Origin: a virus
Taxonomy: Duplodnaviria > Caudoviricetes
Direction: 5' to 3' (one strand)
Virus record (IMG/VR): IMGVR_UViG_3300036546_000129
Coordinates: 1 to 37,102 of that record
Length of the DNA: 37,102 nt
The number at the start of each line of letters is the position of its first letter. Position 1 is the first letter of the stretch. The notes beneath the pieces were generated by a model. That model was not told the origin of the DNA. It did not search any database and saw only the letters and a list, made by a program, of their open reading frames with translations. Shown here piece after piece: positions 3,390 through 33,333 of the stretch. The translations under genes and the position numbers were made by a program.

Positions 3390-3425
3390 ATGGTATAGCG
3401 TAACCATTAAACGAGGAATTGGATT

Positions 3426-4091: not shown

Positions 4092-4105
4092 TAGGAACCG
4101 GTAGA

Positions 4106-4600
4106 ATGGAAAGTCACGCACTGTTTGAAAAAGCGCAATTGTTGGTAAATGAAATTGTTGAACGGAAACTGAATGAGTTTTTGGTTGACTCTGTGGGGGA
4201 GAAATTACTGAAGCCCCTTATGTCCATTCGGTATGAAAAACGCCTTTGGTTGTTTAACAGTGTAGAGGACCTGCAGGATTTTTGGGAACTTATTCGTAAA
4301 GACAGTGAGTTTTGTGACTTCATTCTTACGTCCACTATAGAGTTTAAAGTGCGTTTAACCAGTGAACCTCAGGCGTATAGCCTTTTCGTCAAACACCTCT
4401 CCAATAGCGCCACGTGTTTTTCGCCACATTATCGGGAAGGGTTATTAGCCATGGACGATGACTTATACGATCGCCTACCTGAACCTGAAACGTTTCAACA
4501 TCTGTTAATCGCTAACCCGTGGTTTGTATTCACACTGGTACTGACCTTATCCCCCCTCAGTGTCTTAACTAGTCTGTTAAACAGACTTAATGAAGGTTGA
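4106..4600 (+). CDS. Hypothetical protein (164 aa)
   Basis: AGGA RBS, ATG start, operon context. Confidence 0.75.
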   Translation: MESHALFEKAQLLVNEIVERKLNEFLVDSVGEKLLKPLMSIRYEKRLWLFNSVEDLQDFWELIRKDSEFCDFILTSTIEFKVRLTSEPQAYSLFVKHLSNSATCFSPHYREGLLAMDDDLYDRLPEPETFQHLLIANPWFVFTLVLTLSPLSVLTSLLNRLNEG

Positions 4601-4603
4601 TCT

Positions 4604-10175: not shown

Positions 10176-13100
10176 TCAAATAGACCGTGAAAGATCAACA
10201 GGTGGTTTAACCCCTCCTATCTCCACGGGTCTAGCGCCCCTCTGAACATCCGGACTAGGAACATTTCCTTTACCGGCATCGGTTGAGCGCGTGTTCACTT
10301 CTATGGTACCCAATTTACCGTCAATGGATTTCAGGGTTCCATCCATGGACATCTGTACCTGAAGTTGTTTTTCCATTGCCTTCAGCATTACACTCATTGA
10401 GCGCTCAGACATCTCCTGGGTGAATTGTGTCTGTACCTCCGTTTCTTTTGCAGACCTTTCGGCCCTATCCCGAACATTCACCATCTCCTTATCGGTCCTT
10501 GTTAAACCGGACGAGTCGGTTATGTCAGGTTGTGAAACAGATCTAACCGACATTGCCTCACCCACACTGGTTCCCCGATACCGTGCTTTTCTGGTGGCCA
10601 GTTCTTCAAATATATCAGCAGAACGTTTATCACGGAAACGTCTGCCGTGGGCGTAGTAACTACCGTCAGGCTGAGGCCCTTCCTTGATTTCAGCCTCGAC
10701 TTTAGCGACCTCTGGAGTTTTACCCTCATTTGAAACGTCTGTCTCGGTTCCGGCAACAACTTCTTCTTTAACTGCGTCGGTGGCCTCCGGTGCTTGTACA
10801 GGGGTTTCAGCACCAACTGTTGGGTCCGAGGCGGTTTGGTTTTCATTAGCTGCAGCAATGGCCTGTTCTATCAGATTACCCGATTTTACCTTAGGTAAAT
10901 ACATACTGTACTTAGATTTACGATCCTGTAAACCGTTTGTACCGCCATTGATCAACTTCGTGGAACGCAATACGTCCCCTTCCTGGGCAGCGCTCCTTAG
11001 TCCTCTGCGGTTTTTCCACCACCACAAAGAAACTTTGGCTGCGTATTTTGGATCGGCCACCAAATCAGGATTACTGATAAAGTCAATCCCTAACGCTTTT
11101 GAGGCAGCTTCGTAGTTGGCGCGACCGGTCAAGTGAATGAACCCACGTCCCCTGAACTTCCACCCGTCACCCGGCTGCGTGTTACCCAAGTCACTGCGGT
11201 TTCCGTACACCCGATTAGCAATGGCTTCAGGTTTACCCGCAAACTGCTCTGCCTCCCCTGAGCGTTGGAAATATCGACCAAACACCCTTTTGAGGTTACT
11301 GGCCGAATACCGAAGGTTCTCTTCTAACCGCGTGAAGTTAGCCGACTCGTGCCCCAGCTGTGCTAAGACCATCGCCTGCTCTTCAGGGTCAGTAATCCCT
11401 TCCTTCACCAACGCTGCCGCAACCTTCGCCTCACCTTCCGTTTTAGGGATTGTCCTTTGTGGAGGAGCTGAGCCCGAAGCGCCCTGCAACTCAGGGGGTA
11501 ACGAGTCTTTATTCTCAAACTGGTTATTAACCGTTTTGAGGTCCTCGTTCGCATTAACGGTATCCCCTTTACTTAACCCTGGTGGTGGGGCTGGTGTCTT
11601 AGACGTTGTGGATGTAGCATTCTCTTCCAAGACTTTAGATGCATTGGGTGACTCGCTAGCTTTATCCCGTGTAAGGGGTATTTTGATTTCCTTATCAGTT
11701 GCTTTCAACTCCAACGACTTGTACTCGGCTTCGTATCCAACCGCTACGCTCACTACGTAATCAGGCCAGGGTGAAAACGTCCGACCCATTTGATTGGAGA
11801 TATTAGACAAGTCCGAAGCCACCAACCCTTTAGCCAATAGGAACTTCTCTTTATGACTAAACCGGTCTCGTGCATCGTAGATCGTTGACCGTTCCTTGGT
11901 CAAATTGATTACGGTAGCAAAGTCCAGGAAGATTGGTAAGAAGCGCTGTTTAAACCATTTTTCCCACTCCTCTTTGTGTCTAGTTCGAGCTTCCATTTTC
12001 AAGCCACTGGCGAATAGAGGACCCACTTCCTTGTACGCTTTAGAAGCCCCTTCATCGTAGACTACACGGAAACCATCCAGCACGGAGGTTTTGTCATACA
12101 CCCACTCCTCTAGACCCACCAACGCTTCAACCCTTTTGGGGTCAAGTTCGCGTAAACCGTACATTTTAAAACGCATGGCATCGACTTCGTCGTAACGTAT
12201 TTCTCGACGACGAAGAATGTTGGGGTCAATTTCAGAGCGAGTACGTACCTCGTCACTCGGTGTTGTAGACCCTTCTTTATCGGCACCCTTGACAACTTTA
12301 GGTTGATCCACATTAAGGTCTGACTCTGTTTCGGCGTAATCGTACTTCTTATAGATCTCCTTAACAGCTTCTTCCTTAGTGATTCCCTCCCGTGTAGCCA
12401 TCTTAGCAGCTTTGGTCTCAACTCGTTGACGATCTTTAGAAATTTTCAGTAAAGCATCCGAGTAACGCTCTTCGATGTATTCGGAGTCAACATCAATTTC
12501 GGTTTCATCCCCGAAAGGGCTGAACCGTTCGTCGAACACGTCAGCGAATTCTGACATCTTGACCGCTTTAAGGTAGTTGAGTTTGATGTGGGGGGATAGA
12601 CGATCATCCACGTCCAACAAGTCAACATCAGGTGCTTCTAGTCCCTTAAGTGCCATCACGTGAGTGGCCAGCACTGGTTTAAACCGTTTGTCGAACCACG
12701 CTGAGAACTTCATCACCGATTCACGGTTCTTGGTATCAAGTCCGAAGTTTTCAAGAATGGTGGGGATGTCAGCCTCCCGTATATCCAGGTGCGCTTCCCG
12801 CCCATCACCTTTCACTTTGTCCTGAAGTTGACTTTCTAACCACAAGACCTGCTTAGCTTGGTCCTCATTGGTGTACTCGATACCGTACTGGGCTAACCTC
12901 AAACGGGTGATGTGACCGACTTTGGAACTCTTATACTTCTTCCAAAGCCACCAACCACCAACACCAACAGCCGCTACCGCCGCTGCACCCAATACAACCG
13001 GCGCAGTTAATACAGCACCAGCCCCTGCTAATACGGCACCGCCCACTTTAGCGGCCCCAGCTGCGATGGCTGTTTTAAGGCCACCTAACGCAAACATCCC

Positions 13101-16100
13101 TTTTAGCCCCATAGCACCACGCGCTAACCAACCACCAGCTTTGGCAATCCTACCGGCGCCGGGTATTTTACTCCCCACTGACTTCAGCCAACCACCGACT
13201 TTACTACCACCACGTTTAGTGAGGTCCCACGCACGTCGCAAAAATCCACCCTTCCCTTTGGTTTTAGGACCTTTTCTTGGTTTGTCGCGTCCTGGTAAAT
13301 CCATTCCACCTAACGCATCCCCTGTAAGTTTTGCTCCGACACGAAGTTTAAAGAAGTCTAGAAGTGAACTGATCTTAGTACCGATAAACCCAGCGACCCC
13401 CATTAGGAGCCCCCCTAATTTACCCCACCAACTATCTTCCTTCTCTTCTTTCTCTTTCTTGACTTTAGGATCTTGTTCTTCCTCCTTCGCTTTTCGCTTC
13501 TGGAAGATGTCCTGCCAACTACCATCCCTGTCGCCGTCACCGTCCGAGTCGTGTAAACCTTTTGGTTTAAACTGATCCATTAAGACGTCACGGATGTCTT
13601 TTAAGACGTTAAGTTGGTCTTTGTTAACAGAGAGTAGTTCATCATCACGCTCACCTTTAAAACCTCCTAGCCCCAATTTGTCCAGGAAACCTAACAGGAG
13701 GTCCTTACCGCCATTAAAGACGCCACTGAGCGCGTCTTTCCCTAAATTGAATCCTTTCTTGGCAAGGTCAAACGGTTTCTTAAGGAGCCCCCCTATCTTG
13801 CCCATGATCGACTTCAAAGGTTTACCGTTGATGTCAACCAACCCTTTTTCAAAATCTTCAAGGGAGAGTTTGACGTTACCCTCAAGGTCAAGTATAGGTC
13901 CGTCAATTTCCTTCCAGCTGTAAATACGTTTCTGTGTAGTCTTTGAAACGTACCCACCTGCTTTCAAGACTCGTGCCAGCAACTTAGGGGTTTCCATGTC
14001 ATCGGGCGTATAGATATCCTTTTCTTGTTTAAGGAAGGCAACACCTTTATCCCACGCACCTTTAACCAGGTTTTTAGCAAACGAGAGTGGCTTGAGTCCC
14101 ATTCCCACTAAACTCTGTAACCCTTTAAAAGCTCGGGTGATTAAACCACCCTTCTGGTTAACGAGTCCTTCCTTAAACTCTTCCGCTGTTAGAACAATGT
14201 TTCCGTACTTGTCTTTAACAGCACCTTTGATGTCTTTCCAGTGGGCGATGAGCTTCCCGGTTTCAGCATCGAAGTATTCGCCCTCCTTCATTTTGTTCCA
14301 ATACAGGATTACACGGTCGGTCCCTTTGACTTTTAGATCTGACCTGAACTTATTCCATTTGTCCTTAACAAACCCAAACGTACCGCCCACAACTTTTTTG
14401 GCACCACGGTACGCGCCACCACCCCAACGTCCCATGCGTTTCAGATGGTTCTTGTTGAAGTCGTAGAAGCCTCGACCCATCTTCCCTAAACGTCCTTTGG
14501 CGCGTTTGAAGAACCCTTCTTTCTTAGGACCGGTCCCACCTGAGCCTTCGCCACCACCTTGTGACTGAAGTACTTGATAAATGTTATCTAAAAGTTCTAC
14601 GCTGTCAGCACTGAACTCCGTCTGTGCTTTAAGTGTTTCAATTAAAACCCCATTACCCTCTTCGTATGCGTCGATCAGGTCATCGATAGCACTCTGACGC
14701 ACCTCCTCTATTCGCGCTTCCTTGGCGGGTTGAGTGTCCGCAGCAGTAACAGGGGTAGGCCGAATATGATCAAACCCACCTCCGCGACCGACAATGCCAA
14801 CAGGAGTAAAAGGACCAGTCCGAGGAGCTTCAACTCCCTGACGAGTTCCTTCATTATACTGCTCTCCTTTGAGATAGGACCTGACTTTGTCCTGATTAAC
14901 TCTGTAGGTACCATTCTCCTCTTCATCAACCAAACCAAGTTCTAAGAGTTGATCAATGTTGCCTAAATCACTATACGCTTTAATACCTTCTTCCGATTTA
15001 GGGATATAACTCTGTATCCGTTTGAACCGGTTAAAGGTCTGATTACGTTTTTGTGTACTTTCAACCGTGTCGTTAAACCCGCGCTCTCGATCATTATAAC
15101 CAAGGGAAGACTTCATCCTGGCTATGATCGCTTTAGCGTCTTTCTCGGACACTCCTCTTGCGGTATAGGTTTTGGTGTCCAGGTAGCGTGTGTAACTACT
15201 GTCGAAACGCCCTTCCCGCGCCTCGTCCATCATCAGTTCGGTTAACGCATTGCGCTGATTCTCATCCATCTTCCCTTTGGGGTCAATTTTAGACAGGAAG
15301 TCTTTGTTGGCCTCATCCAGACCCTTACGGTCCTCTTTAGAGAAAAGTCGGTTCAGCATATCCTTTGCTGATTTGGACATATCCGTGAATTGACCACGGT
15401 CCACGTTGTAGACCATACGCTCAACGTTAGGGTCGCCTGTCCTCAGGATCATCAACTCGTGATGGATACGGGATAAGTAACCGGGTATAATGTCCGTAAT
15501 AGATTTACGGGTCATTTCGTTGAATGTGGCGGGCTCCATGGATTTATCAAAGCCTGCGTCAAAGGTATCGTCATTGGGCTTATTGGGAGCCGCACCAAAA
15601 ATAATATCTTTAGCGAAACGTTTCAGTCCCCCAAAACGACCTTCCGCATCCGTCTTCCCAGCGTCAACGTCTTCCTGTGTCAACACCACCTTACCTGAAC
15701 TGTCGACAACCGGCCCGCTTACGTCTTCAGGTCTTCGAATTTCCCTACCCGTTTCAGCATCGAAATACTCCCCCTTCTTAAACGCGCCAGATTCGTGGTC
15801 CATCTGCATATTGCGAAGGGCATAGGGGATACTGTTCGCTGCTAAAGCACTTTTATGTCCCCATTTAAGAACGTCAGGGTTCTCTTCAAGAACGGGTCGC
15901 AAACGTTTGATCAGTGACCCTACAATCTTGTCAGATACCGTACCCCCCAATTGCTGACCGGCCATTTCCCAGGGATCGATCTTAACATCCATATCCGATG
16001 TCATTTCGACCTGATCGGCAACTGTCATTAAGCTTTCGTTTATACTCCCCATAGTGTCTCTGAACTTACCGATAATGTTTTTACCGTAGTTCTTAAGATA

Positions 16101-16961
16101 GTCATTGGTGAAGTCGGAAGCACGACCTAAAAAGCGTTCACGAAAAACCTGTCCTGCTTGTTCACCCAACTTGATCTTTTCAGATTCGGGCAGTGCAGTG
16201 TTCTTTACAATGCTCTTTAAAAGGGCTGATGCTTCTTTACTGCTGGCTTTCGATAACTCGAAGAGGTCATGTGTGGTGTAATACTGACGGAACTGAAGTT
16301 CCAACGACTTCTTCTGATACTTGGCTGTGACCTGGTCTTGGTAACTGGTTAAACTACCAATACCTGCAGAGATATCCTTTAACGCCTCCAGTTCGGTTTG
16401 GAACTGATGGTCCTGTACCCTCTCACGGAAAAGGCGTTGAACGGTCTCTTCTTGGCGGTCTTCGTGGTCTTTGGTGATCTGGGTTTTAAAGATATCACCT
16501 AACTCTGTAGCTAGACCTTGTTCACGTACCTCTTGGGCGGAGGGTCCTCTGACATCATCGTCTTTGGCCCAGTCGTCTAGCTTCTCCCCCAACTTACCCG
16601 GTAACGCGTTTTTCAAACGCGGTGACACTTTACGCGTTAACCGTTTAAGTTGTATGGCAACAGGGCGCAGTTCTTCGGCGGCCGTATTGTATAGATCACG
16701 ACCAAAATCCGCTGCACTATCGACCGCTTCAAAGGCTGAAGAGTATTCTTCAGGCAGTGCTTCCTGCGCACGACGACGCATTTTGTCCGTGTCAATGAGG
16801 TCGTCTTTAACACCTTCCAGAAATGAACTGGCTACTTTGGAAACAGGTTTACGATCGTCTTTGGGTTCGTCGATACTAAAGTCGTCGTCCCCAAACCCAA
16901 AATCCAGATCGTCTAAGCCGTCATCAAAGTCCAACTCATTCTTTTTGTCTTTCTTTGCCAT
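10176..16961 (-). CDS. Large tail protein (tape-measure-like, phiKZ gp181-like) with C-terminal GH19 peptidoglycan hydrolase domain
   Basis: 2261 aa, AGGAG RBS. Gly/Ala-rich hydrophobic segment. GH19 motifs LAQLGHES..F..LEENL.YS, GDGWKFRGRGFIHLTGRANY and TKLINGGTNGL.DR at ~10895-11420. Divergent from the vRNAP beta' gene, as I recall for phiKZ. Confidence 0.88.
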   Translation of the reverse strand: MAKKDKKNELDFDDGLDDLDFGFGDDDFSIDEPKDDRKPVSKVASSFLEGVKDDLIDTDKMRRRAQEALPEEYSSAFEAVDSAADFGRDLYNTAAEELRPVAIQLKRLTRKVSPRLKNALPGKLGEKLDDWAKDDDVRGPSAQEVREQGLATELGDIFKTQITKDHEDRQEETVQRLFRERVQDHQFQTELEALKDISAGIGSLTSYQDQVTAKYQKKSLELQFRQYYTTHDLFELSKASSKEASALLKSIVKNTALPESEKIKLGEQAGQVFRERFLGRASDFTNDYLKNYGKNIIGKFRDTMGSINESLMTVADQVEMTSDMDVKIDPWEMAGQQLGGTVSDKIVGSLIKRLRPVLEENPDVLKWGHKSALAANSIPYALRNMQMDHESGAFKKGEYFDAETGREIRRPEDVSGPVVDSSGKVVLTQEDVDAGKTDAEGRFGGLKRFAKDIIFGAAPNKPNDDTFDAGFDKSMEPATFNEMTRKSITDIIPGYLSRIHHELMILRTGDPNVERMVYNVDRGQFTDMSKSAKDMLNRLFSKEDRKGLDEANKDFLSKIDPKGKMDENQRNALTELMMDEAREGRFDSSYTRYLDTKTYTARGVSEKDAKAIIARMKSSLGYNDRERGFNDTVESTQKRNQTFNRFKRIQSYIPKSEEGIKAYSDLGNIDQLLELGLVDEEENGTYRVNQDKVRSYLKGEQYNEGTRQGVEAPRTGPFTPVGIVGRGGGFDHIRPTPVTAADTQPAKEARIEEVRQSAIDDLIDAYEEGNGVLIETLKAQTEFSADSVELLDNIYQVLQSQGGGEGSGGTGPKKEGFFKRAKGRLGKMGRGFYDFNKNHLKRMGRWGGGAYRGAKKVVGGTFGFVKDKWNKFRSDLKVKGTDRVILYWNKMKEGEYFDAETGKLIAHWKDIKGAVKDKYGNIVLTAEEFKEGLVNQKGGLITRAFKGLQSLVGMGLKPLSFAKNLVKGAWDKGVAFLKQEKDIYTPDDMETPKLLARVLKAGGYVSKTTQKRIYSWKEIDGPILDLEGNVKLSLEDFEKGLVDINGKPLKSIMGKIGGLLKKPFDLAKKGFNLGKDALSGVFNGGKDLLLGFLDKLGLGGFKGERDDELLSVNKDQLNVLKDIRDVLMDQFKPKGLHDSDGDGDRDGSWQDIFQKRKAKEEEQDPKVKKEKEEKEDSWWGKLGGLLMGVAGFIGTKISSLLDFFKLRVGAKLTGDALGGMDLPGRDKPRKGPKTKGKGGFLRRAWDLTKRGGSKVGGWLKSVGSKIPGAGRIAKAGGWLARGAMGLKGMFALGGLKTAIAAGAAKVGGAVLAGAGAVLTAPVVLGAAAVAAVGVGGWWLWKKYKSSKVGHITRLRLAQYGIEYTNEDQAKQVLWLESQLQDKVKGDGREAHLDIREADIPTILENFGLDTKNRESVMKFSAWFDKRFKPVLATHVMALKGLEAPDVDLLDVDDRLSPHIKLNYLKAVKMSEFADVFDERFSPFGDETEIDVDSEYIEERYSDALLKISKDRQRVETKAAKMATREGITKEEAVKEIYKKYDYAETESDLNVDQPKVVKGADKEGSTTPSDEVRTRSEIDPNILRRREIRYDEVDAMRFKMYGLRELDPKRVEALVGLEEWVYDKTSVLDGFRVVYDEGASKAYKEVGPLFASGLKMEARTRHKEEWEKWFKQRFLPIFLDFATVINLTKERSTIYDARDRFSHKEKFLLAKGLVASDLSNISNQMGRTFSPWPDYVVSVAVGYEAEYKSLELKATDKEIKIPLTRDKASESPNASKVLEENATSTTSKTPAPPPGLSKGDTVNANEDLKTVNNQFENKDSLPPELQGASGSAPPQRTIPKTEGEAKVAAALVKEGITDPEEQAMVLAQLGHESANFTRLEENLRYSASNLKRVFGRYFQRSGEAEQFAGKPEAIANRVYGNRSDLGNTQPGDGWKFRGRGFIHLTGRANYEAASKALGIDFISNPDLVADPKYAAKVSLWWWKNRRGLRSAAQEGDVLRSTKLINGGTNGLQDRKSKYSMYLPKVKSGNLIEQAIAAANENQTASDPTVGAETPVQAPEATDAVKEEVVAGTETDVSNEGKTPEVAKVEAEIKEGPQPDGSYYAHGRRFRDKRSADIFEELATRKARYRGTSVGEAMSVRSVSQPDITDSSGLTRTDKEMVNVRDRAERSAKETEVQTQFTQEMSERSMSVMLKAMEKQLQVQMSMDGTLKSIDGKLGTIEVNTRSTDAGKGNVPSPDVQRGARPVEIGGVKPPVDLSRSI

Positions 16962-17051: not shown

Positions 17052-18512
17052 TTGAAAATAAACAAAATTCCTTTCAACGTTCAACTGCTTGATACAAGCG
17101 CTCAACGCTTACGAGGACTGAGACCGACTACAAGTGGTGACATTATGGATGTCACTGGAGGAAACTTCCACGAGGATGGTTTGTTCTCCACGTTAACATT
17201 CGGTCGCGTTGGTGAAGAGGCGCGAGAACAGAAGTTTTCGTTCATCGATATCAAAACCCCTATCTTTCACCCCGTTGTGTTTAAAACGTTAACGCGTTTA
17301 AAAGGACTGTACCGTGACATCCTGTTAGGTAAGGCTTACGCCATTTGGGACCCTAAAGATAAAGACTTTCACCCGGCGAACGAGTTGACTGGTGAAACGG
17401 GTTACGCCTTTTTTATGTCCCATTGGAAAGATATCAAATTTAAGGAAACCAGCAGCGCCATTCGTGCTGAGCGTGTCAAGTTGATACAGAAGTATCAGGA
17501 CATCGCCACCACCAGTAAAATAATGGTGCTGCCAGCGGGACTGCGCGATTACGAGATTGACTCCAGTGGTCGAGGCACGCAGGACGAGATCAACGACTAT
17601 TATCGTAAGTTGTTAAACATCTCACGGGTTATTGCGGAAACAGATGACAGTAAAAACTCCCCTATCTTGGATAATACCCGACGGTTACTCCAAGAGCGCT
17701 TTAATGAGATTTATGAAATCCTGAAGAAGATGATCACTGGGAAAAAGGGTTTCATTCAAAGTAAATTCGGGGGACGTAAAATATTCAACGGTACTCGAAA
17801 CGTTATCACGGCGATGGATACCTCCACTAACGTGTTAGGGAGTCCTCGTGCACCCCGGTTCAACAACTCCTTGATCGGTTTATACCAGACCATTAAAGGG
17901 TGTTTACCCGTTGCCATCTACCAACTGCGTTCGAGCTTTATCAATGGAGCGTTTGGTAGTGGGGGGAGTGACACGGGTGCTTATCTGATAAATCCTAAAA
18001 CACTCAAACGGGAATACGTTGAACTGCCGATGGATGTTCGTGACAAGTGGGCGACTATCGACGGACTAGAGAAAGTCATCAATAACTTTGAAAACGTTGA
18101 CACTCGTCTTAAGCCGGTGACGGTGGGTGGTCATTATTTGGCACTGATCTATAAAGGTCCTGATAAAACCTTTAAAGTCTTTTATGACATTGCCGACCTA
18201 CCCGAAGGGTTTGATCCCAAATTTGTAGAACCCATCAATTATACCGAACTTCTATACCTCTCTGGGTATCGCCGTTGGAATACCCTTAAAGTGGTAATCA
18301 CCCGATACCCCATCAGTGATATTGGGAGTACGTACACGTCTGACGTGTATTGTAAAACTACGATAGACAGTGAAGAGCGCATGGAGTTGGGCGATGATTG
18401 GGAACCTATGGGTGGGGACCACATTGCTTTGGAATTTCCTAAGACCGGTAGTGACGAATTCTTCGATGCCCTTTCGGTATCCAGTTCACGTCTATCTGGT
18501 CTTGGGGCTGAT
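17052..18512 (+). CDS. rpoC: Virion RNA polymerase beta'-like subunit (phiKZ gp180-like), exon 1
   Basis: beta' motifs EDGLFS..FG, LPAGLRD, GKKGFIQ..FGGRK...GTRNVIT and TRYP. The frame reaches ...LSGLGAD and then departs from the catalytic motif. Confidence 0.9.
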
Positions 18513-20806
18513 AGTTCTATGATTTAATTGGTAAAAAAATATATAACAAAGTTTACCTATGTTATGGTAGTTCTCCAAATTTAAAAACATAGGTACACGG
18601 TTATGTTTGAAAAGTATTTAAAAGTGTCGGGGTTTATCCCATTTCCCCTTTCCGGTAACAGTTGTTACTTAGATGAAAACGGAAAAATAAAAAATGAAAG
18701 AGGTCAGGTTGTACCCCAAACCCTGGACTCTGATGGATACCCTCAGGTTTTCGCCGACCTGTGGGATGGGGTGAGACAATACCGCATCGTCGATCTCATG
18801 GCGATCGTCTTTAAAAGTGTAAAACTCCAATATAACCAGTGGAATGAAATCGAAGGTTTCTACATAGACGGTGATGTCAAAAATAGCCATGCTAGCAATA
18901 TTGGTTATCGCTTTCGTACTTTCCCTTTACAGTGCACACGCTTCCCTGACTTCTACCACATTCCGATGTTTAGTCGATACGGCATAAATCGTGAAGGGGA
19001 ACTCATTTCACTGTCTAGTGGTAAATTAAGATCAGATTGGTGCGTCACGAAAGGTAACTCTAAGAGAAACATAAAAGGCGGTTATCTGTATAACGGCGCT
19101 ATCATCGATACGGGTGGAAGTACTACTGTACTTAGGCATCGTCTCCTGTGTCTGGCGTTCAAACCCTACCCTGACAACGTGGATAAGATGGATGTCAACC
19201 ACATTGATGGTGTCCCTGGTAATGATGATCTAGACAACCTCGAATGGGTCACTCGGAGCCGTAACAACACACACGCGTATCAGAACAACTTAAAGCAACA
19301 ACATAAACGTGTATTAGCTCGTAATGTTCGAACGGGTGAGGTTACTGAATTCTACAGTATCTCTGAGTGTGCTCGCTGTTTAGGGTATCCTACGGACGAA
19401 ACAATACGAGTGCGATTAAATTCGACCTTTTCTCAGGTTTGGAAAGACGGTTACCAATTCAAGTTTTTGGATGATGCTCGAGATTGGGTAATCCCTGACG
19501 ATCCTGAAGAAGCGATACTCGACGCCACCCAAGCTATGGGTGTTCGTGTGCGAAATTGTCGCACACTTGAAGAGTGTTCTTACGACTCTATAGGGAGGGC
19601 TGGTGCTGTTTTGGGAATTGGTCACTCCACTATCCTTTATCGTTTAAAAAACGGTCTCACAGGTCCTCATAGGGGCTTTCAGTTTAAATACTGGGACGAC
19701 CTTTCAGATTGGGAACCGTTTACCTTAGAAGAACTCGAAGACACTGGGAGTGTTGCAAAGTCTGTAGAGGGTCGAAATCTGTTGACCAAAGCTACCTGTA
19801 GTTACCCTAGTGTTAAAAGTTGTTACTACGGTCAGAACAAACCTTACAATTTAATAGTAAACCTTCGTTCTGGAGAACAACGGGTTTACCCGGATGGTTG
19901 GCAATACAAATACGTTGATGACCAATGGATAGAGGTCGGCGACGTTCAGGAAGCCCTACTAGAGTCTAGCCGTAGGATTGTTGCGCGAGACGTATTAACA
20001 GGCGAAGTGTTTGCTGGTAAAGACTGTAAAGACATTAGTGAAAAACTAGAATTGCAAGCAAATGGAGTGCGGCGTGCAGTTCAGGAGTCCGGTAAGTCAG
20101 TTTACAACACTTATCAGTTTAAGTACGAGGGTGACCAAACCCCTTGGCCTGAGCTGCCTGAAGAAGACCTGGTTGCGCTAAGTAGTGGCGTAAACGTGAA
20201 AGGAACATACAAAGTCCTCACTGACATAAAGACTGGGGATAGGTTTTACTTCCCGAGTGTTTTAGATTGTGTCCGGTTTTTAAAAACAGTAAATTCTAAA
20301 CCCGTTTTCGAACGGCGAGTTAGGAGCGGCGAACTCCTAGACGGTAAATATAAATGCTCCACCTATACACTGGCGTCCCATCAACCTAGTGTGTAAAACG
20401 ATACTTTTCAATTACTCAATTAATTCATCGATGTCCCGTTAAAGGGTGACCTTTAACGTGTATCCCTCTAATTGCGGGAAACCCCTGAGAGCCTCTTAGT
20501 ACCCCTTACAGCCCGAAAGGGACTGTAATACTCCTGGCGTAATATTTCCAAGGAGCATGGTAAAAACCTAAGAGGATTGGGTAACCGACGCAGCGAAGTC
20601 CCTCTATGCTTAGGCAGTGGGATGAGTTCAACGACTAACCGGTAGCGCGGTGTAGGGGCCAAGTGGTCTCGAAATGGGGGACTTCTCACACACGTAGTGA
20701 TGAGAAGATGATATAGTCTCGACGTCCAGTGAAAGCTGGAGCAGCGCTGTAACACTGTGAAGCGTTACAGTGGCGGCTTGGATTAACGACCCAAGTGAAG
20801 GTTTCG
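18513..20806 (+). mobile_element. Group I intron 1 (HNH-encoding) in the vRNAP beta' catalytic motif
   Basis: The 5' exon ends in U (GAT) and the intron ends in G (20806). Core elements: AATTGCGGGAA (P4), AACCGACGCAGCGAAG (P4'/P6), TTCAACGACTA (P7) and GATATAGTC (P7'). Splicing restores GAD-FDGD. The P1 pairing is weaker than for introns 2 and 4. Confidence 0.92.
18603..20396 (+). CDS. Intron-encoded HNH homing endonuclease (597 aa) with tandem NUMOD1/IENR1-like repeats
   Basis: HRLLCLAF...VNHIDGVPGNDDLDNLEWVTRSRNNTHA (HNH_3 type). About five repeats of V..RN..TGE...F.S...A..LG...GYQFKY.DD...W. Confidence 0.9.
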   Translation: MFEKYLKVSGFIPFPLSGNSCYLDENGKIKNERGQVVPQTLDSDGYPQVFADLWDGVRQYRIVDLMAIVFKSVKLQYNQWNEIEGFYIDGDVKNSHASNIGYRFRTFPLQCTRFPDFYHIPMFSRYGINREGELISLSSGKLRSDWCVTKGNSKRNIKGGYLYNGAIIDTGGSTTVLRHRLLCLAFKPYPDNVDKMDVNHIDGVPGNDDLDNLEWVTRSRNNTHAYQNNLKQQHKRVLARNVRTGEVTEFYSISECARCLGYPTDETIRVRLNSTFSQVWKDGYQFKFLDDARDWVIPDDPEEAILDATQAMGVRVRNCRTLEECSYDSIGRAGAVLGIGHSTILYRLKNGLTGPHRGFQFKYWDDLSDWEPFTLEELEDTGSVAKSVEGRNLLTKATCSYPSVKSCYYGQNKPYNLIVNLRSGEQRVYPDGWQYKYVDDQWIEVGDVQEALLESSRRIVARDVLTGEVFAGKDCKDISEKLELQANGVRRAVQESGKSVYNTYQFKYEGDQTPWPELPEEDLVALSSGVNVKGTYKVLTDIKTGDRFYFPSVLDCVRFLKTVNSKPVFERRVRSGELLDGKYKCSTYTLASHQPSV

Positions 20807-20974
20807 TTCGACGGTGACACGTGTAGTGCCACCATAGTCTACTCGCAAGAAGCCATTTCAGAAGTTGACAATTACCTCAATTCTAAAGAGGCGTATTTAA
20901 GTCCACAAGGCGGCTTTAAAGCCAGTACCTCAGTGAATACCGTCAACCTCGTTCTCAAAAATATGACAGGTTAA
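20807..20974 (+). CDS. rpoC: vRNAP beta'-like subunit, exon 2 (FDGD...; 55 aa)
   Basis: TTC GAC GGT GAC ACG TGT... = FDGDTCSATIVYSQEAISEVDNYLNSKEAYLSPQGGFKASTSVNTVNLVLKNMTG*. The spliced product is 542 aa. Below the ORF-track cutoff. Confidence 0.92.
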   Translation, partial: FDGDTCSATIVYSQEAISEVDNYLNSKEAYLSPQGGFKASTSVNTVNLVLKNMTG

Positions 20975-20981
20975 ACAGCGC

Positions 20982-22625
20982 ATGATACTCTATCCGATTT
21001 GGTACCGTAAACACGGTATACGCAGACCGTCTGACCTTTTAGGTCCTAAGTTCAGTAAACTGTCCAACCTTGCTTTACCTAAAGAATCCGTACTCCACTA
21101 CTATCCTGAAGACGACATCGTGTATGGTCTTCCGGGTGATGACGTTATGATCAAGGCGGATGATCGTCCGGTGGTTGTAGAACATATTACAGAACTGGGT
21201 GATAACAAAGGAGCACCAAAACCACTGCCTGTGGTTCCGGCCAAAATGATCCGTGAGTATCATCGTAAAAACAAACGGGTACGTTGGCTTAAGAACCGTG
21301 AGATTGCTTTCTCCAACCCTAAGACGTTGGTCGTTGAGAACTACGCACTCTTGAACCACATGTACCGCTACACCACTAGTTTCTTTGCGAACTACTACCG
21401 CTGGTATAACGTCCGGGCGGCGTTATGGAAAGGTGTAAACAGGATCGCTAAAGAAAGTGAACGTCAGCAGTACATTAAATGTACGTTACCTGATACACTC
21501 CCGTCTTTGGCTGATTTACGTAAACTTGAGAAGCGTTTAGATCGCACCACCTTGGATAAGTTCAAGGGGACTGAAGAGTATAACCTGGCCGACTTCTGGA
21601 CTTGGTTAGGTGATAACCGCGCTAACTCGGTTATGTCGTTAGTGGATACCAAACACCTTGATAACCTTAACATGGTGTGGGTGTGTCAAGATCGTTGGTT
21701 TGTGTTGAACCTAGGTATGCTGAACGATTGGCGTGCCACTGAAGTCGCTAAGGAAGGTACCACTGAGGGGATCAAACCGATCAGTTTACAGAAACGCGTC
21801 ATGCGTTTATTGATGTCACTTTACGAAACCAAGACGGTGAGTGAAGACGAAGCAAAACCTGTTCGTGAGAAAACCAATAAAGAAGCAGAAGCACTTCCGG
21901 ATACAAAAGATGAAGGGAGTGTGGATGAACTCCACCGCGAGGGCGAGCTCCTTCTGAATGAAGACATCACACTTTTCCAAAATGAGCAGGACGAACTGGA
22001 TCTGGATTCAGAACTGGACGCACTGAATGATCTTCACAAGAAACTGGAAGCACAACAAGAAGCGGAAGCCAGTCCCACTGAAGTGAATGAAAGTATTCGA
22101 GCGTCTGAAGTCGATCTTTCACAACCGGTGATTGAAAAAGCGAACCAGTTAGCGGATAGCGGGATGTTGTCAGCCGCTGAATACCGTCGACTGAACAAAT
22201 TAGCTGAAGTTCACAAAACACTCAAAAACCCTTATGGAGATGGGTTGCTGGTGGATGAGGCTAAAGTAGACCCCAAAGCCGTAACACTGGAGACCGTTAC
22301 CCAGTTCCCTGACAGTCCCTCAGTCCTAGACAAAAGTATGCTTCAAAACAGTGTTGTTGATTTCGACACACGGTATATCAAACACGTTTTGAAAAAGGAC
22401 GTGTTAGGTAGCGTACTGAACCTGCAAAATGCGGGGGTATCAGTAACGGGGTATGATGTTGATCGTGTGGACGGTCCGTTGGGGAGCTATGAAGTTCACA
22501 AGGTTAAGGTGGTACCGGTTAATGGTTCGCCTAGTACGCTGAATTTCCGTTTACCTGTAATAGAAGAGAACGGTACTTATGTAGCCAATGGCGTAAAATA
22601 TAGATTAAGGAAGCAACGAGGGGAT
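20982..22625 (+). CDS. rpoB: Virion RNA polymerase beta-like subunit (phiKZ gp178-like), exon 1
   Basis: Ends with the beta motif LPVIEENGTYVANGVKYRLRKQRGD, then TAA as the first intron triplet. Confidence 0.88.
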
Positions 22626-23188
22626 TAAAGCCGCTACTCTCGATAACTGTATCTCATGGTATTAGTTTTAGTCGAGACGTAATGGATGATTAACAAAGCA
22701 GTGGGTAAAAAACCCAGTCCAAAAAGACTCGGTACAGAAACCTTTATTGAAAATGTCTGTAAAGAAAAAGTCTGGATTGGAAACATTGTTTTAGTGTTAA
22801 TTAATGGTCCCCGTGTCTTGGTAACAAGGCACTAGAAAACCTACCTAATTGCGGGAAAACGTCTATAATCTTTTTTGACTACCACTTACAGGTGGAAACA
22901 CACTGTAATACTCACCCCAGTAATGGAAGCGGTGAGCATGGTAAAAACGTCGAAAAGAGACGCAACCGACGCAGCGAAGTCCCTAAGGTCTACTTACTAG
23001 TGGGCTATGGGATGTGCTCAGAGGCCATCGAAAGCTACGGTCAGTCCCCCAATAAACTGACTCAATGACACCTGTATAAAGTCAGGTGGTCACACTGGTG
23101 ATTAAAGCGAGTAGAGTAGGGACAGTATGGTTCCGAAACGGTAGGCTTCCCTCTGGGAAGAAGATATGGTCCATTTTGGATAGGAATG
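22626..23188 (+). mobile_element. Group I intron 2 (563 nt, no intact endonuclease)
   Basis: The 5' exon GGGGAU pairs with IGS GUCCCC (~22807-22812) with U-G at the splice site. P4 AATTGCGGGAA, P7 GGCCA/TGGTC, terminal G 23188. Splicing gives QRGD-LPIRK. Confidence 0.85.
22686..22835 (+). pseudogene. Probable homing endonuclease remnant (49-codon ORF in intron 2 P1 loop)
   Basis: MINKAVGKKPSPKRLGTETFIENVCKEK...NGPRVLVTRH*. Same position as the endonuclease genes of introns 1 and 3. KRLGTETFIE resembles the K-K-L-T-T-E-E-F-I repeat of some phage endonucleases. Confidence 0.45.
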
Positions 23189-24625
23189 CTACCTATCCGT
23201 AAAGTTTCCCCCTTCCGTGTTGCCCTGACCAGTTATTATGGTAAAATGTTTGTCGAACGTTCCCAGCGCAGTGCGAATAACTACGGGAAGTGGTTAGAGA
23301 ACCAATTGATATTGAAAGCTCTGGATGAGAATGATCCCGATATCCTGGAATCACGTACCTCTAACATCTTCAAGGCAACTAATAAAACTCCCCGCATTTA
23401 TGCACTGTTGGCTAGGACGTTTAAAAGCTTCGGCACCCCTAAGTACACATTCTACTTGGACTTTGAAAAACGCGAAGAGGTCTACGGGAAAGACTTCGTA
23501 ACGAAAGCGGAAAAGGAAGGGGGCGTTGTTATAGGTCACCTGAAGTCCAACAAGAAAACACTTATTGTTGTCGATGACCAAGATACGTTTTACGAACACA
23601 GTGAAGGTGGACTCAAACCCATCGGTAAGTTGGAACAGTTGCTTAACATCGATATCGCTGGTGCACCTGTTGAATTGGCTGAACTGAAGGTCTTCAATAA
23701 GTTCATCCCGATCGGTGTGGTGTTAGGCTACTATATCGGACTTGAACGCCTTTTAAAACTGTTAAAGGTCGAGTACCGTAAAGTGAATGTGGGTGAGCGC
23801 GCGGAATTGTCCCCCACTGAATTCTCCGTTCGTTTCATTGACGAAGTGTTAATCTTCGATCGTGACGATCGACTGTCTAGCATGGTTGTCGGCGGGTTTA
23901 ACCTGTATCACCGTAGTATCAAGAGTTATAGTGTTTACGATTTTGACAAACCAGACGTGTACGGTAGCGTCCTAGACGCTAATAAAGTAGGGGCACGTTA
24001 CCTGAGGGAATTGGATCTCTTGAAGGATATGTTTGTCGACCCTATCACCCGTGATCTTTTGGTAGAGATGGAAGAGCCAACAGACTGGTTAGGTCTTCTC
24101 TTGCGGGCGAGCGAATTACTCTTGACCGACTATTCCCCAGCAGAAACCGACATGGAGTGGATGCGCATCAAGGGCTATGAGCGTGTAGCCGGTACCGTAT
24201 ACGGAGAACTTGTTAAATCAGTTCGCATGTTTAATGCACGGGGAGGGGGCAAAAATAACCGTGTAGAACTTTCACCCAGTGCCGTATGGCAGACGTTACA
24301 AGAGGACCCCTCCAAAGGACTGGTAGAGGAACTCAACCCTGTTGAGAACTTACGTGAGAAGGAGGCTGTCACATACAGTGGTCATGGTGGACGCTCCCGT
24401 AGGAGTATGGTTAAGTCCAGTCGTGTATTTACGGAATCGGATATGGGGGTGATCTCTGAAGGTACAGTGGATTCAGGGGACGTAGGTATTGTCAGTTATC
24501 TGAGCGCTGACCCTAACTTCACCAGCCTTCGTGGATTGGCACGTAAAAGAGATTTTGATAAAGATGGTCCGGCTACATTCCTGAGCACAGCAGCGATGCT
24601 TTCGCCAGGTGCTGATCGTGATGAT
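23189..24625 (+). CDS. rpoB: vRNAP beta-like subunit, exon 2
   Basis: beta motifs ELNPVENL...VTYSGHGGRS, R.F..SDMGVISEGTVDSGDVGIVSYLS. Ends ...PGADRDD followed by TAA. Confidence 0.9.
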
Positions 24626-25742
24626 TAATAAATGTTTATTGAAGTTTATACTCCTATCTTATAACTAAACGGTTATAAGGAAAATAGGTGTGTTAAATTT
24701 AAAAGGGTTTAAAAGTATACCAGGATATAGTGACTATGTTGTTAATGTAGACGGTGTAGTCGTTAGTTTAAAAACTGGTCAAGTTTTAAAAGCTTCTAAA
24801 AATGGTTCAGGGTATTTACAAGTTACAGTTAATAGAGACAATGGTCAACGTCAAGGTTTAGGTATACATCGTGCTTTAGCATTGACTTTTATACCTACAG
24901 ATGAAGACAAAAATTCTTTAATTGTAAACCATAAAGATGGTGATAAACTTAATAATAGTTTAGATAATCTTGAATGGTGTACTTATGTGGAAAATAGCGA
25001 ACATGCGGGTAAATACGGTCTTACAACAAAATGTAAACCGATATCTATCCGCGATAAAAATGGTTTAATAATATCTTTTCCTAGTTTTGTTAAGTGTGCT
25101 CGCTTCTTAGGTGTTAGCAAAGACGCTGTAATTTGGCGAGTAAAAACTAAAGGCAAAATTCGTTTTAAAGATGGTTATCAATACCATGAAGGTTACGACG
25201 TTACTGATTGGCCAGAACCAATTAATAAAACAATAGTGGTTAAAGATCTTGAAAAAAATTTATTTTATATTTTTGATAAGAAACAAGATGCCGCTAAGTT
25301 TTTAAAAGTATGTCCATCAACAATAACCTTTCGCTTAAATGAATCACATGAAAATATTTACCCAGACAAAACCCAAATTGGATATTTATCCGACTTCAAT
25401 AAACAAAATGGTCCAACCATAAAGCAATTTATGGATTGAGTGTTCCTTAATTGCTGGGACGCCCTAAAGCTATTCTACTACTGCGAGTCGAAAGACAAAG
25501 CCAAAGTTTAAAAAATGAATAGATATTACAATGGGTAATCAGCAGCGAAGCTTCTACGGAGTGTTGTGAAACACGCTAGGGAGAACGTTCAACGACTAAC
25601 CCCTCATCAGGGTGTAGGAATCAAGTGATTCCGAAACAGGAACCTTCCTACTGGGAAGAAGATATAGTCTCCTCATCTAGTGAAAGCTAGAGCAGTGGTT
25701 AAGACCACGGGCTAGGTGTAACGAACCTAGTTGAAGATAAGG
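24626..25742 (+). mobile_element. Group I intron 3 (HNH-encoding, 1117 nt)
   Basis: GAT|TAA 5' end. Core AATTGCTGGGA/AATCAGCAGCGAAG, TTCAACGACTA, GAAGATATAGTC, P9 GAAA-loop hairpin. Terminal G 25742. Confidence 0.9.
24690..25439 (+). CDS. Intron-encoded NUMOD4-HNH homing endonuclease (249 aa)
   Basis: N-terminal FKSIPGYSDYVVN..G.V.S (NUMOD4-like), IHRALALTFI...VNHKDGDKLNNSLDNLEWCT..ENSEHA, and two C-terminal NUMOD1-like repeats. Markedly AT-rich. Confidence 0.92.
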   Translation: MLNLKGFKSIPGYSDYVVNVDGVVVSLKTGQVLKASKNGSGYLQVTVNRDNGQRQGLGIHRALALTFIPTDEDKNSLIVNHKDGDKLNNSLDNLEWCTYVENSEHAGKYGLTTKCKPISIRDKNGLIISFPSFVKCARFLGVSKDAVIWRVKTKGKIRFKDGYQYHEGYDVTDWPEPINKTIVVKDLEKNLFYIFDKKQDAAKFLKVCPSTITFRLNESHENIYPDKTQIGYLSDFNKQNGPTIKQFMD

Positions 25743-25753
25743 CCAAAACGAGT
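25743..25753 (+). CDS. rpoB: vRNAP beta-like subunit, exon 3 (11-nt micro-exon, P-K-R-V)
   Basis: CCA AAA CGA GT follows the terminal G of intron 3. It restores the frame and gives DD-PKRV-NFIGIQ. Confidence 0.85.
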
Positions 25754-26133
25754 TTTAACGGCTCATTGACATCTAATTGCGGGAACGCCCTTAGAGCCTC
25801 TTAGTACCACTTACAGGTGGAAACACACTGTAATACTCCTGGCGTAATATTTCCAAGGAGTATGGTAAAAACCTAAGAGGATTGGGTAACCGACGCAGCG
25901 AAGCTCCTACCGTTGACTACCGTCAACCACGGAGTTGGTTCAACGACTATCCCACGGACGTGAAATTCGTCATTAGGAGTAGGGCTCAAGTGTGAGTGGG
26001 TGAGAACCCCTTAAATCGAAATGGTGTCCGTCCTTAAAAAACTAAAGGGCGAAGATATAGTCTATTCTTTGGTGAAAGCCGAAGCTGTACTTTAAGTACG
26101 GGTGGAGACTCACGACCTCCATCGAATATAAAG
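25754..26133 (+). mobile_element. Group I intron 4 (380 nt, ORF-less)
   Basis: P1: exon GAGU (25750-53) pairs with GCUC (25761-64) with U-G at the splice site. Complete core (AATTGCGGGAA, TTCAACGACTA, GAAGATATAGTC). Terminal G 26133, phase-2 junction GT|C. Confidence 0.9.
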
Positions 26134-27244
26134 CAATTTCATAGGCATCCAGCACCACTCGGGCATGGCCGCTAAAGGTTACCAATTAACCCCCTTGAGA
26201 ACTGGGTACGAGTACGTTGTCGCTCAGCGTACCGACGACCTTTTTGCTTACACGGCCAAAAAGGAAGGGAAAGTGACATCCGTTACCGATAAGACGGTAA
26301 CGGTTGAATACAAGGATGGTGAAATAGTCCATATCGAGATCGGACGGCGTTACGGTACCGCTGCCGGGTTTATATACCCACACAGCGTAACCACTGATGT
26401 GAAGGAAGGGGATAAGGTTAAACCAGGGGATGTTATCACGTATAACTCTGATTACTTTAAACCGAACCCTCTAAACCCTAAAGAAGTGGTGTGGAAAGCA
26501 GGGGTGTTGGTGAAGACGGCTATTTTGGAGTCTCCTGACACGCTTGAGGACTCTTCAGCTATTTCACAAAAGGTAGCAGAGGCACTCAAGACACGCTCCA
26601 CTAAAGTGCGGGACATTACCCTGACGTTTGACCAGTCAATACGCAATATGGTTAAAGTCGGACAAGTGGTTGAGACTGACACAATCCTGTGTTTCATAGA
26701 GGATTCAGTGACAGCCGATAATGATTTGTTTGACGAGAGTTCAATCGACCTGTTACGTCTGATGTCAGCCCAAGCCCCTAAAGCCAAGTATGCGGGCACC
26801 GTTGAGAAAATTGAAGTTTTCTATAATGGTGATAAGGACGATATGTCTGAATCCCTCAGGACTTTAGCCAATGCGTCTGACCGTGAACGTAATAAACTGT
26901 CGCGTTCGCTAGGTAAAGCCACTACTGACGGGAGCGTTGACGGAACATTACGGGTGGGAGGTGACCCACTGAACATGGATAGTTTGGTCATCAAGGTCTA
27001 CATAACCGGTGAAGAACGTGCGAGCGTGGGCGACAAAGGCGTGTTCGGTAACCAGATGAAAACTGTATTTGGTCGCGTTATGACAGGTCGTAACGAAACC
27101 GAAAACGGTGAAGAAATTGGTGCCCTCTTTGGTCTAGCAAGTGTGAGTGACCGACAGGTCCACAGTCCTTTTATCATCGGTACGACCAATCGCCTATTAA
27201 TCTGGCTTTCAAAACACGTGGTCAAAGTTTATAACGAGGGATAA
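26134..27244 (+). CDS. rpoB: vRNAP beta-like subunit, exon 4
   Basis: The frame is open upstream of the listed ATG 26165 (NFIGIQHHSGM). beta motifs TPLRTGYE, EDSSAISQ and VGDKGVFGNQMKTV. The spliced total is 1400 aa. Confidence 0.9.
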
Positions 27245-33297: not shown

Positions 33298-33333
33298 AAA
33301 AAAGAGTCTCCCTAGGGAGACTCTTTTTTTTTT
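33298..33333. terminator. Bidirectional intrinsic terminator
   Basis: AAAAAAGAGTCTCCC-TA-GGGAGACTCTTTTTT between convergent genes. Confidence 0.9.

What the first reader, a model, noticed from the sequence alone, without database searches (positions are those of the whole stretch)
17052..27244. Four self-splicing introns in one vRNAP operon, at different life-cycle stages
Seen: about 4.35 kb of this 10.2-kb locus is intron. Two introns have intact HNH genes (1, 3), one has an apparent remnant (2) and one has none (4). Introns 1-3 insert after a GAT codon in phase 0, and every intron has an in-frame stop within its first five codons. Inference: the locus captures the gain, decay and loss cycle of homing endonucleases, and vRNAP output depends on four splicing events. 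Established precedent: an RNAP-intron HNH of PhiPA3 (gp210) interferes with co-infecting phiKZ. This locus could be a stacked attack-and-immunity array against related phages.
Basis: partly seen in the sequence, partly recalled or inferred. Interest (0 to 1): 0.8.

Follow-up and report, generated by a model that had tools for sequence, protein, structure and literature searches.

The report
Four-intron jumbo-phage RNA polymerase operon
Two neighbouring RNA-polymerase genes of an uncultured giant bacterial virus are cut by four introns of the self-splicing type, two of them only 11 bases apart, and near-identical relatives carry the same introns with, without or with a broken DNA-cutting gene, which likely records the ordinary gain-decay-loss cycle of selfish introns rather than a purpose-built weapon array.

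Summary
There are four Rfam group I cores and 4,354 nt of intron in gp180-like and gp178-like virion-RNAP genes of a phiKZ-like phage. Intron-less DNA alleles in relatives fix the boundaries, and introns 3 and 4 flank an 11-nt exon.

The life-cycle reading is well supported. Close relatives show the sites empty, nuclease-bearing or nuclease-deleted. Intron 1 is 97-98% identical to its copy in a phage whose exon is 75% identical, the signature of recent homing. Intron 3 sits at the PhiPA3 gp210 site and encodes a gp210 homologue. Intron 2's lost nuclease was not an HNH.

The 'attack-and-immunity array' is not supported as a unit. Nucleases are deleted repeatedly, a fifth site is empty, and two other phages also carry four introns here.

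Less ordinary features:
- The 11-nt exon recurs in an unrelated phage.
- Intron 2 lacks a P9 hairpin and its tail pairs with the downstream exon, with covariation (this scan reported that earlier on other DNA).
- Introns 1, 2 and 4 have swapped P4-P6 modules.

No RNA or enzyme data were available. New variant of a known kind; interest 0.45.

The parts
17052..18512 (+). gp180-like virion RNAP beta' subunit, exon 1 (ends ...GLGAD)
   Evidence: phrog_2986 E 1.7e-190; spliced 542 aa is 43% identical to PhiPA3 gp212 and HPP-Temi gp180-like proteins
18513..20806 (+). Intron I1, group I, splits the AD|FDGD catalytic motif, phase 0
   Evidence: Rfam 82 bits; exact empty allele 18512>20807 in X9
18603..20396 (+). 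HEG1: 597-aa HNH endonuclease with NUMOD-like repeats; the putative ribosome-binding site lies in a predicted 9-bp hairpin (not significant)
   Evidence: Pfam HNH_3; motif alignment; hairpin z -1.2; deleted in L004, L005, X2, X3, X6, X9
20807..20974 (+). gp180-like exon 2 (FDGD... to stop)
20982..22625 (+). gp178-like virion RNAP beta subunit, exon 1 (ends ...RKQRGD)
   Evidence: phrog_3148 positions 1-574
22626..23188 (+). Intron I2, group I; P1 guide GUCCCC at 22807 closes around the former nuclease gene; only 16 nt from P7' to the terminal G
   Evidence: Rfam 60.6 bits; empty alleles in X2, X3, X9
22686..22794 (+). Remnant of HEG2: first ~23 and last ~10 codons of a ~421-aa DUF723-repeat endonuclease that is intact in L005
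23178..23198 (+). Predicted 7-bp helix between the I2 tail (23178-23184) and exon nucleotides +4 to +10 (23192-23198), in place of P9
   Evidence: cognate 7.1 vs non-cognate 4.7 pair score, 0 of 100000 permutations; P9.0 covariation
23189..24625 (+). gp178-like exon 2 (LPIRK...ADRDD)
   Evidence: phrog_3148 positions 575-1050
24626..25742 (+). Intron I3, group I, at the PhiPA3 gp210 / 201phi2-1 site (DD|PKR)
   Evidence: Rfam 76.7 bits
24690..25439 (+). HEG3: 249-aa NUMOD4-HNH-NUMOD1 endonuclease, gp210 homologue; 31% GC (GC3 18%); ribosome-binding site in a predicted hairpin
   Evidence: 37% identity to gp210; best cultured hit; GC; hairpin z -4.5
25743..25753 (+). 11-nt micro-exon (P-K-R plus two bases of V)
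   Evidence: X6 letters; X1 contig 25535-25799 spans it; same arrangement in L089
25754..26133 (+). Intron I4, group I, ORF-less, phase 2; P4-P6 region is a mosaic of I1-type and I2-type modules
   Evidence: Rfam 58.6 bits
26134..27244 (+). gp178-like last exon
   Evidence: phrog_3148 positions 1065-1422
27029..27040 (+). Fifth intron site (GD|KG), empty here with a GAC codon; occupied in relatives
   Evidence: L067, L074, L078, L089; joints or loose ends at 27027-27035 in X2, X6, X9, X10

Best explanation
These are four independent group I introns at conserved homing sites of two virion-RNAP genes of a phiKZ-like jumbo phage, each predicted to self-splice and each likely at its own stage of the homing-endonuclease cycle. 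How it works, with each step marked: (1) A nuclease-bearing intron enters an empty site by cut-and-copy gene conversion during co-infection. Shown for I1 as a sequence signature; the enzyme step is inferred from gp210. (2) The nuclease gene is then lost by deletion. Shown by alleles in relatives. (3) The ribozyme stays, because only exact loss restores the essential gene. Inferred; exact empty alleles are seen. I3 is likely the newest arrival and landed 11 nt upstream of a resident ORF-less I4. Each intron is predicted to splice on its own: I4's P1 uses the last four micro-exon bases, I3's P10 at most the first six, and the four P3 helices and P9.0 pairs differ. I2 belongs to a site-specific lineage whose P9 is predicted to be replaced by a tail-exon helix. 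Neighbouring cores have likely exchanged P4-P6 modules by ectopic conversion. Damage to intron-less co-infecting phages by HEG1 or HEG3 is a plausible side effect, as for gp210.
For: Rfam cores; open spliced frames. Allele series in close relatives. HEG1 is 96.7-97.9% identical between the window and L004 while exon 1 is 75.5%; the first 60 exon bases downstream are 98% and then fall to 87% and 82%. Flanks of I2 are locally divergent from L005 (82-90% against 97-100% further out). HEG3 is 31% GC against 46-48% in the exons. All 41 of 41 phase-0 introns follow GAT, while I3-less alleles use 37 GAT and 28 GAC. Occupancy among 75 non-redundant states: 14, 13, 16, 8. An I3-site intron has two spliced reads in 201phi2-1 (PMC11512511 passage; site checked). 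Module swapping: 33 of 115 columns differ between window I4 and L005 I4 in P4-P5 against 11 of 273 elsewhere, and 32 of the 33 match window I1 or I2.
Against: No RNA from this phage was seen and no enzyme was tested, so splicing and cutting here are inferred. Intron counts per genome are mildly overdispersed (permutation p 0.04 without the window's cluster), which could mean that some lineages gain from carrying many introns. HEG1 shows 5 amino-acid against 11 silent changes over 203 codons, so it was under purifying selection until recently; this fits homing and a competitive benefit alike. Double occupancy 11 nt apart is hard to make by ordinary co-conversion, and the route is not shown. The P4-P5 window was chosen after seeing the alignment, and module sharing within a genome is not general outside this clade (p 0.43).
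Confidence: 0.8

Rival explanations
1. Stacked attack-and-immunity array: the set is kept by selection in phage-phage competition. HEG1 and HEG3 kill intron-less relatives across separate phage nuclei, and ORF-less I2 and I4 are kept as shields against nucleases that circulate in the population.
For: I3 and HEG3 match the gp210 system in site and catalytic His. All 7 close relatives with a listed joint at this site lack I3 (L004, L005, X2, X3, X6, X9, X10). The I2 nuclease is intact in ~95%-identical phages (L005, X6), so the window's ORF-less I2 would block it. 4 of 5 relatives tested encode a chimallin homologue; the fifth is a 30%-complete fragment. The window is the only 4-of-4 state among 75.
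Against: Repeated independent nuclease deletions. I1 was transferred between phages with 75% exon identity, that is homing rather than killing. The fifth site is empty. I3 and I4 co-occur 2 times against about 1.7 expected (from one search counts). No nuclease-bearing I4 was seen among close relatives. Retention of ORF-less introns needs no benefit.
Confidence: 0.2
2. Regulatory splicing: the introns, especially the I3/micro-exon/I4 pair and the I2 exon helix, tune vRNAP output. Skipping the 11-nt exon would give a frameshifted 1040-aa beta fragment.
For: The skip product stops 13 codons after the junction. Exon skipping is reported for Twort orf142 (23-nt exon) and SIOphi polymerase (47%) (passages of PMC10136302 and PMC11878797). 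The 11-nt arrangement recurs in L089.
Against: Close relatives do without I3, I4 or both, and 41 of 75 surveyed states have none of the four introns. P1, P3 and P9.0 elements differ between I3 and I4, which should disfavour skipping (PMC10136302).
Confidence: 0.08
3. Assembly artefact: repeats among intron cores were mis-joined, creating the I3-micro-exon-I4 tandem or the I4 mosaic.
For: Contigs of the likely source run break inside the shared core tracts. A 42-nt tract shared by I1 and I4 is longer than the 31-letter words.
Against: One X1 contig (25535-25799, no differences) spans the I3 end, the micro-exon and the I4 start. An X5 contig matches 25740-25938 exactly across the mosaic. L005 has I4 at the same place, and L089 has the same tandem.
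Confidence: 0.03

Closest known systems
PhiPA3 gp211/gp210/gp209 intron (Birkholz et al. 2024, PMC11620839)
   Same: Same gene (phiKZ gp178 homologue), same insertion point after Asp-Asp, homologous HNH (37% identity, catalytic His kept), similar hairpin over the nuclease start.
   Different: PhiPA3 has one intron in this operon. Here there are four, HEG3 is about 80 aa shorter, and a second intron follows 11 nt later. No activity was tested here.
201phi2-1 gp273/274 intron
   Same: Same I3 site; two spliced reads reported (PMC11512511, passage).
   Different: ORF-less and single.
AR9, MarsHill/Madawaska/Machias and Jug jumbo-phage introns
   Same: Multiple group I introns in RNAP and other core genes, variable among close relatives (bioRxiv 2020.12.14.422802 passages; PMC12880540 passages: 18.5 introns per genome on average).
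   Different: Other phage lineages. I saw no analysis of micro-exons or module exchange in the passages read; the MarsHill intron table is an image and was not seen.
Staphylococcus phage Twort orf142 (three group I introns, exon skipping)
   Same: Tandem group I introns around very short exons (23 nt per PMC10136302).
   Different: Twort introns 2 and 3 are highly similar. I3 and I4 share at most 13 identical bases in a row, so a chimeric ribozyme is less likely. The original paper was not held.
T4 td/nrdB/nrdD introns and the Goddard-Burt cycle
   Same: Intact and deleted nuclease alleles (T4 I-TevIII deleted, RB3 intact), and RNA hairpins over the ribosome-binding site (PMC2988022 passages). 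Domain shuffling between T4 introns is recalled (Bryk and Belfort 1990) and was not found in the library.
   Different: Here five sites in one operon are polymorphic among ~92-96%-identical phages.

Membership tests
Group I intron | Catalytic core P3-P7 with conserved P, Q, R, S elements | tested here: met
   Rfam RF00028 above gathering score for all four; elements located
Group I intron | U at exon -1 paired to a guide G (P1) | tested here: met
   U at -1 in all four. Guide clear for I2 (6 bp) and I4 (4 bp). For I1 and I3 the guide was only read by eye and is weaker.
Group I intron | Terminal G and P9.0 | tested here: met
   All four end in G; P9.0 of the I2 lineage covaries, 24 of 24 cells paired
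Group I intron | Intron-internal P9 hairpin | tested here: not met
   Met for I1, I3 and I4 (70-87 nt after P7'). Not met for I2 (16 nt), where the tail is predicted to pair with the exon instead. This lowers 'canonical', not 'group I'.
Group I intron | Guanosine-dependent self-splicing at the predicted junctions | not testable with these tools
   No RNA holder listed
HNH homing endonuclease, I-HmuI/gp210 type (HEG1, HEG3) | HNH motif with catalytic His plus NUMOD/HTH DNA-binding repeats | tested here: met
HNH homing endonuclease, I-HmuI/gp210 type (HEG1, HEG3) | Nicks the intron-less allele near the insertion site | not testable with these tools
   Only indirect: co-conversion signature at I1
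HNH family (the lost HEG2) | HNH motif | tested here: not met
   The L005 copy has Pfam DUF723 and CxxC repeats and no HNH hit. PHROG 559 is labelled HNH. The C-terminal D..D...E-x-(N/Q)-G motif looks PD-(D/E)xK/Vsr-like (my reading, recalled).
Chimalliviridae (nucleus-forming phage) | Chimallin gene | tested here: inconclusive
   Not tested on the 37-kb contig itself; 4 of 5 relatives at 59-60% RNAP identity have a homologue of PhiPA3 gp53
Chimalliviridae (nucleus-forming phage) | phiKZ-type virion module (gp178/gp180 RNAP, gp175 protease, tail sheath and tube, internal head proteins) | tested here: met
   synteny with PhiPA3, 201phi2-1 and LucasX
gp210-type interference weapon | Lowers the yield of a co-infecting intron-less phage without intron transfer | not testable with these tools
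   Sequence shows that transfer did occur for I1

The most novel reading that the evidence does not exclude
A jumbo-phage operon works as a modular ribozyme array. Co-resident introns trade whole P4-P6 folding modules by ectopic conversion while keeping private P1, P3 and P9.0 address elements, which lets two ribozymes share an 11-nt exon without skipping it. One intron lineage has handed its P9 helix to the downstream coding exon, forcing silent and even amino-acid changes in the RNA polymerase to covary with the intron tail. Nuclease-free introns persist as selected immunity alleles against nucleases still circulating in 95%-identical competitors.
Probability: 0.25. Interest if true: 0.72.

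Novelty: new variant of a known kind. Interest (0 to 1): 0.45.

Why it matters
The selfish-versus-weapon question for intron nucleases rests on one phage pair. This clade offers five polymorphic sites in one essential operon among near-identical phages, in empty, armed and disarmed states, so target cutting, immunity and transfer can be tested allele by allele with synthetic targets. The exon-borrowing intron 2 and the 11-nt exon are direct in-vitro tests of how little 3' structure and exon length group I splicing needs. In practice, gene callers report these two genes as about six fragments and miss the micro-exon.

Tried and rejected
RNA evidence: no RNA holder listed. All joints come from contigs of runs guessed to be DNA (X9's kind is not on record), so they show alleles, not splicing.

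I4 as a copy of I1: the whole-core tree groups them (support 0.99), but the 3' halves do not (I1 is not among I4's eight nearest). The grouping comes from the swapped P4-P6 region, so I rejected it.

General within-genome homogenisation of cores: not seen outside the window/L004/L005 clade (18 pairs, p 0.43).

Order-encoding pairing between I4's guide and I3's tail (lead from e1-5664581): not found; the guide pairs within the micro-exon.

GAT and early stops as special signals: rejected. 41 of 41 have GAT because of the U-G rule, 32 of 41 have a stop within five codons, and PMC3073962 states the rule.

I4 as a shield excluding I3: co-occurrence is at chance. Clear co-conversion upstream of I3: not seen (83-97% throughout).

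Hairpins over the HEG1 and HEG2 starts were not significant (z -1.2 and -0.8). No solved structure was found for HEG2. The weak Pfam VasX_N and M-box hits are below cut-off and were ignored.

Literature: searches found no description of an exon-replaced P9, and none of a phage micro-exon of this kind. The library lacks most subscription papers; the Twort 1999 paper was not held, and AR9 (Lavysh 2016) was not read.
Full report
WHAT IS THERE. The window is a 37-kb fragment of a phiKZ-like jumbo phage. It carries tail sheath and tube, a gp175-type protease, an internal head protein and a UvsX-like gene, in the gene order of PhiPA3, 201phi2-1 and LucasX. Four of five related genomes tested encode a homologue of PhiPA3 gp53 (chimallin by my recall; the record calls it similar to phiKZ gp054). 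The fifth is a 30%-complete fragment. A nucleus-forming life cycle is therefore likely but not shown. The finding spans two genes 7 nt apart: a gp180-like beta' subunit and a gp178-like beta subunit. Rfam finds four group I cores above the gathering score. The introns are I1 18513-20806 in AD|FDGD, I2 22626-23188 in RGD|LPIRK, I3 24626-25742 in DD|PKR and I4 25754-26133 in V|N. They total 4354 nt, and in-silico splicing gives open 542-aa and 1400-aa frames. I3 and I4 flank an 11-nt exon.

BOUNDARIES FROM NATURAL ALLELES. L005 (about 95% DNA identity) lacks I3 exactly and has I4. L004 (73-78%) lacks both and reads ADREDPKRTNFIGIQ. I laid 8 of the 18 listed runs; the tables were truncated, and X1 is probably the source. 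X9 joins 18512 to 20807 (I1 absent). X2, X3 and X9 lack I2. X3, X9 and X10 lack I3. X2 (short side, 22 letters) and X6 lack both I3 and I4. X14 was uninformative, and X5 gave short identical pieces.

LIFE-CYCLE STAGES. I1 nuclease: intact here; an in-frame deletion removing the HNH domain in L004, joined at a shared TAGTGG; near-total loss in L005, X2, X3 and a minor X9 allele; another deletion in X6. I2 nuclease: intact (about 421 aa) in L005, with 1172 extra letters at the same place in X6; cut to a remnant here; cut differently in L004. It is a DUF723-repeat protein without an HNH hit. I3: present only in the window among the 7 close relatives with a listed joint, with a 31% GC nuclease gene, so probably the newest; low partial depth over HEG3 in X2, X10 and X14 may be minor strains or other HNH genes. 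I4: ORF-less here and in L005; HNH-bearing introns occupy this site in L030, L032 and L042. A fifth site at 27034 is empty here but filled in four surveyed loci and, by joints or loose ends, in X2, X6, X9 and X10. Recent homing is visible: HEG1 is 97-98% identical to L004's remnant while exon 1 is 75.5%, with a one-sided 60-nt co-conversion tract.

HOW UNUSUAL. The survey used 95 loci plus the window: the best 80 of 204 viral matches, 10 genome contigs, two close relatives and three cultured phages, two of which were picked for having an intron. These gave 77 clusters at 97% identity; 3 were dropped as incomplete, and the window/L005 cluster was split, leaving 75 states. Occupancy, entered by hand from tblastn breaks, is 14, 13, 16 and 8; the I1 class lumps sites a few bases apart. 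41 states have none, and the window alone has all four. L074 still has four Rfam cores in this operon and L045 has four introns (three by Rfam, one by profile and motif). Overdispersion without the window's cluster is mild (p 0.04, no phylogenetic correction). L089, about 55% identical in the last exon, has ORF-less I3 and I4 around the same 11-nt exon. All 41 phase-0 introns follow GAT against 37 GAT and 28 GAC in I3-less alleles, as the U-G pair of P1 requires; 32 of 41 stop within five codons, a rule stated in PMC3073962.

INTRON 2's 3' END. Only 16 nt separate P7' from the terminal G, against 70-87 in I1, I3 and I4. All 13 I2-site introns of the survey have 14-17 nt. In the 12 tested (L005 left out as identical to the window there), the tail pairs with its own exon (+4 to +10) at score 7.1 against 4.7 for other exons, 0 of 100000 permutations. 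P9.0 shows U-A, C-G and A-U covariation. A pattern scan gave 29 hits, of which 10 were this site (4 new) and all paired; the pattern itself favoured such tails. Against generality, and a useful control: Vibrio phage Yong XC31 has an intron at this site with an ordinary internal hairpin at the same position.

MODULE EXCHANGE. Window I4 and L005 I4 are 95% identical in the 3' half but 82% in P4-P6. 32 of 33 differences in the P4-P5 region match window I1 or I2 (post-hoc window), with exact tracts of 42 and 34 nt shared with I1 and 34 nt with I2. Hairpin variants reassort among I1, I2 and I4 in three genomes. An X5 contig matches the mosaic exactly, which argues against mis-assembly. P3 halves stay distinct: 6 of 7 positions pair in cognate combinations and 3-5 across introns, though the script picked a wrong P3 partner for I3. 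The effect is not general in other lineages.

MECHANISM AND RIVALS. Best reading (0.8): independent homing introns in a Goddard-Burt cycle. Allele states and the I1 transfer are shown; splicing and nicking are inferred from family knowledge, gp210 (PMC11620839) and two spliced reads at the I3 site in 201phi2-1 (PMC11512511). The attack-and-immunity array (0.2) has a real foothold: HEG3 is a gp210 homologue at the gp210 site, targets abound, and HEG2 still circulates. But repeated nuclease loss, successful transfer, chance co-occurrence of I3 and I4 and the empty fifth site argue against a selected unit; the two readings are not exclusive. Regulatory skipping (0.08) would give a 1040-aa truncation. 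Artefact 0.03. Unexplained: how two sites 11 nt apart came to be filled together, twice.

PAPERS SEEN. PMC11620839: main text parts 1-3 of 6, figure-legend passages and supplement passages. PMC11878797, PMC10136302, PMC12908238, PMC12880540, PMC3073962, PMC7598289, PMC2988022, PMC3984707, PMC11512511 and bioRxiv 2020.12.14.422802: search passages only; bioRxiv supplements are closed and the intron table there is an image, which may bear on whether these sites are already listed. Landthaler and Shub 1999, Lavysh 2016, Goddard and Burt 1999, Bryk and Belfort 1990: not seen, cited through other papers or recalled.

VERDICT. Real and well resolved, but mostly a rich example of known biology; the scan's own index lists 172 findings on such introns. 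The added value is the population snapshot, the recurrent 11-nt exon, the exon-borrowing intron and the module swaps. New variant of a known kind; interest 0.45.

Noticed in passing
L045 3698-4706: Two group I cores in tandem at the DFDGD motif of the gp180-like gene; L009, L074 and L078 have introns at sites 1-2 nt downstream of the I1 site.
   Followed up: partly
L078 7918-9983: HNH-bearing intron a few codons upstream of the I3 site (after ...PCAD), a sixth site in this gene.
   Followed up: no
L074 7151-7347: Extra ~195-nt break in the gp178-like gene near residue 630; not examined.
   Followed up: no
L024 and L030 (I4 site): Near-identical introns (127-nt exact tract) without and with a 361-codon HNH frame inside the core: another nuclease-loss snapshot.
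   Followed up: partly
L128 (Vibrio phage Yong XC31) 820-5318: Unannotated introns in both RNAP genes of a cultured phage; the I2-site intron has a normal P9 and an apparently split DUF723-type nuclease.
   Followed up: partly
L086-L095: Jumbo-phage RNAP loci lie on large contigs (mostly 140-490 kb) inside bacterial genome records (Paraburkholderia, Caballeronia, Rhodoferax and others); binned phages or phage-like replicons.
   Followed up: no
window 10176-16961 (-): 2261-aa phiKZ gp181-like tail protein with a GH19 chitinase/endolysin domain, divergent from the RNAP operon.
   Followed up: no
L012, L013, L018, L039, L048-L050: An extra ~1.2-1.4 kb lies between the gp180-like and gp178-like genes, possibly a free-standing nuclease like phiKZ gp179, which is a weak hit to HEG3.
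   Followed up: no
window 33298-33328: A 31-nt stretch matches L005 on the opposite strand, suggesting a palindromic, terminator-like element between convergent genes.
   Followed up: no
L090 5785-5794: The gp180-like gene shows a frame break near residue 369.
   Followed up: no
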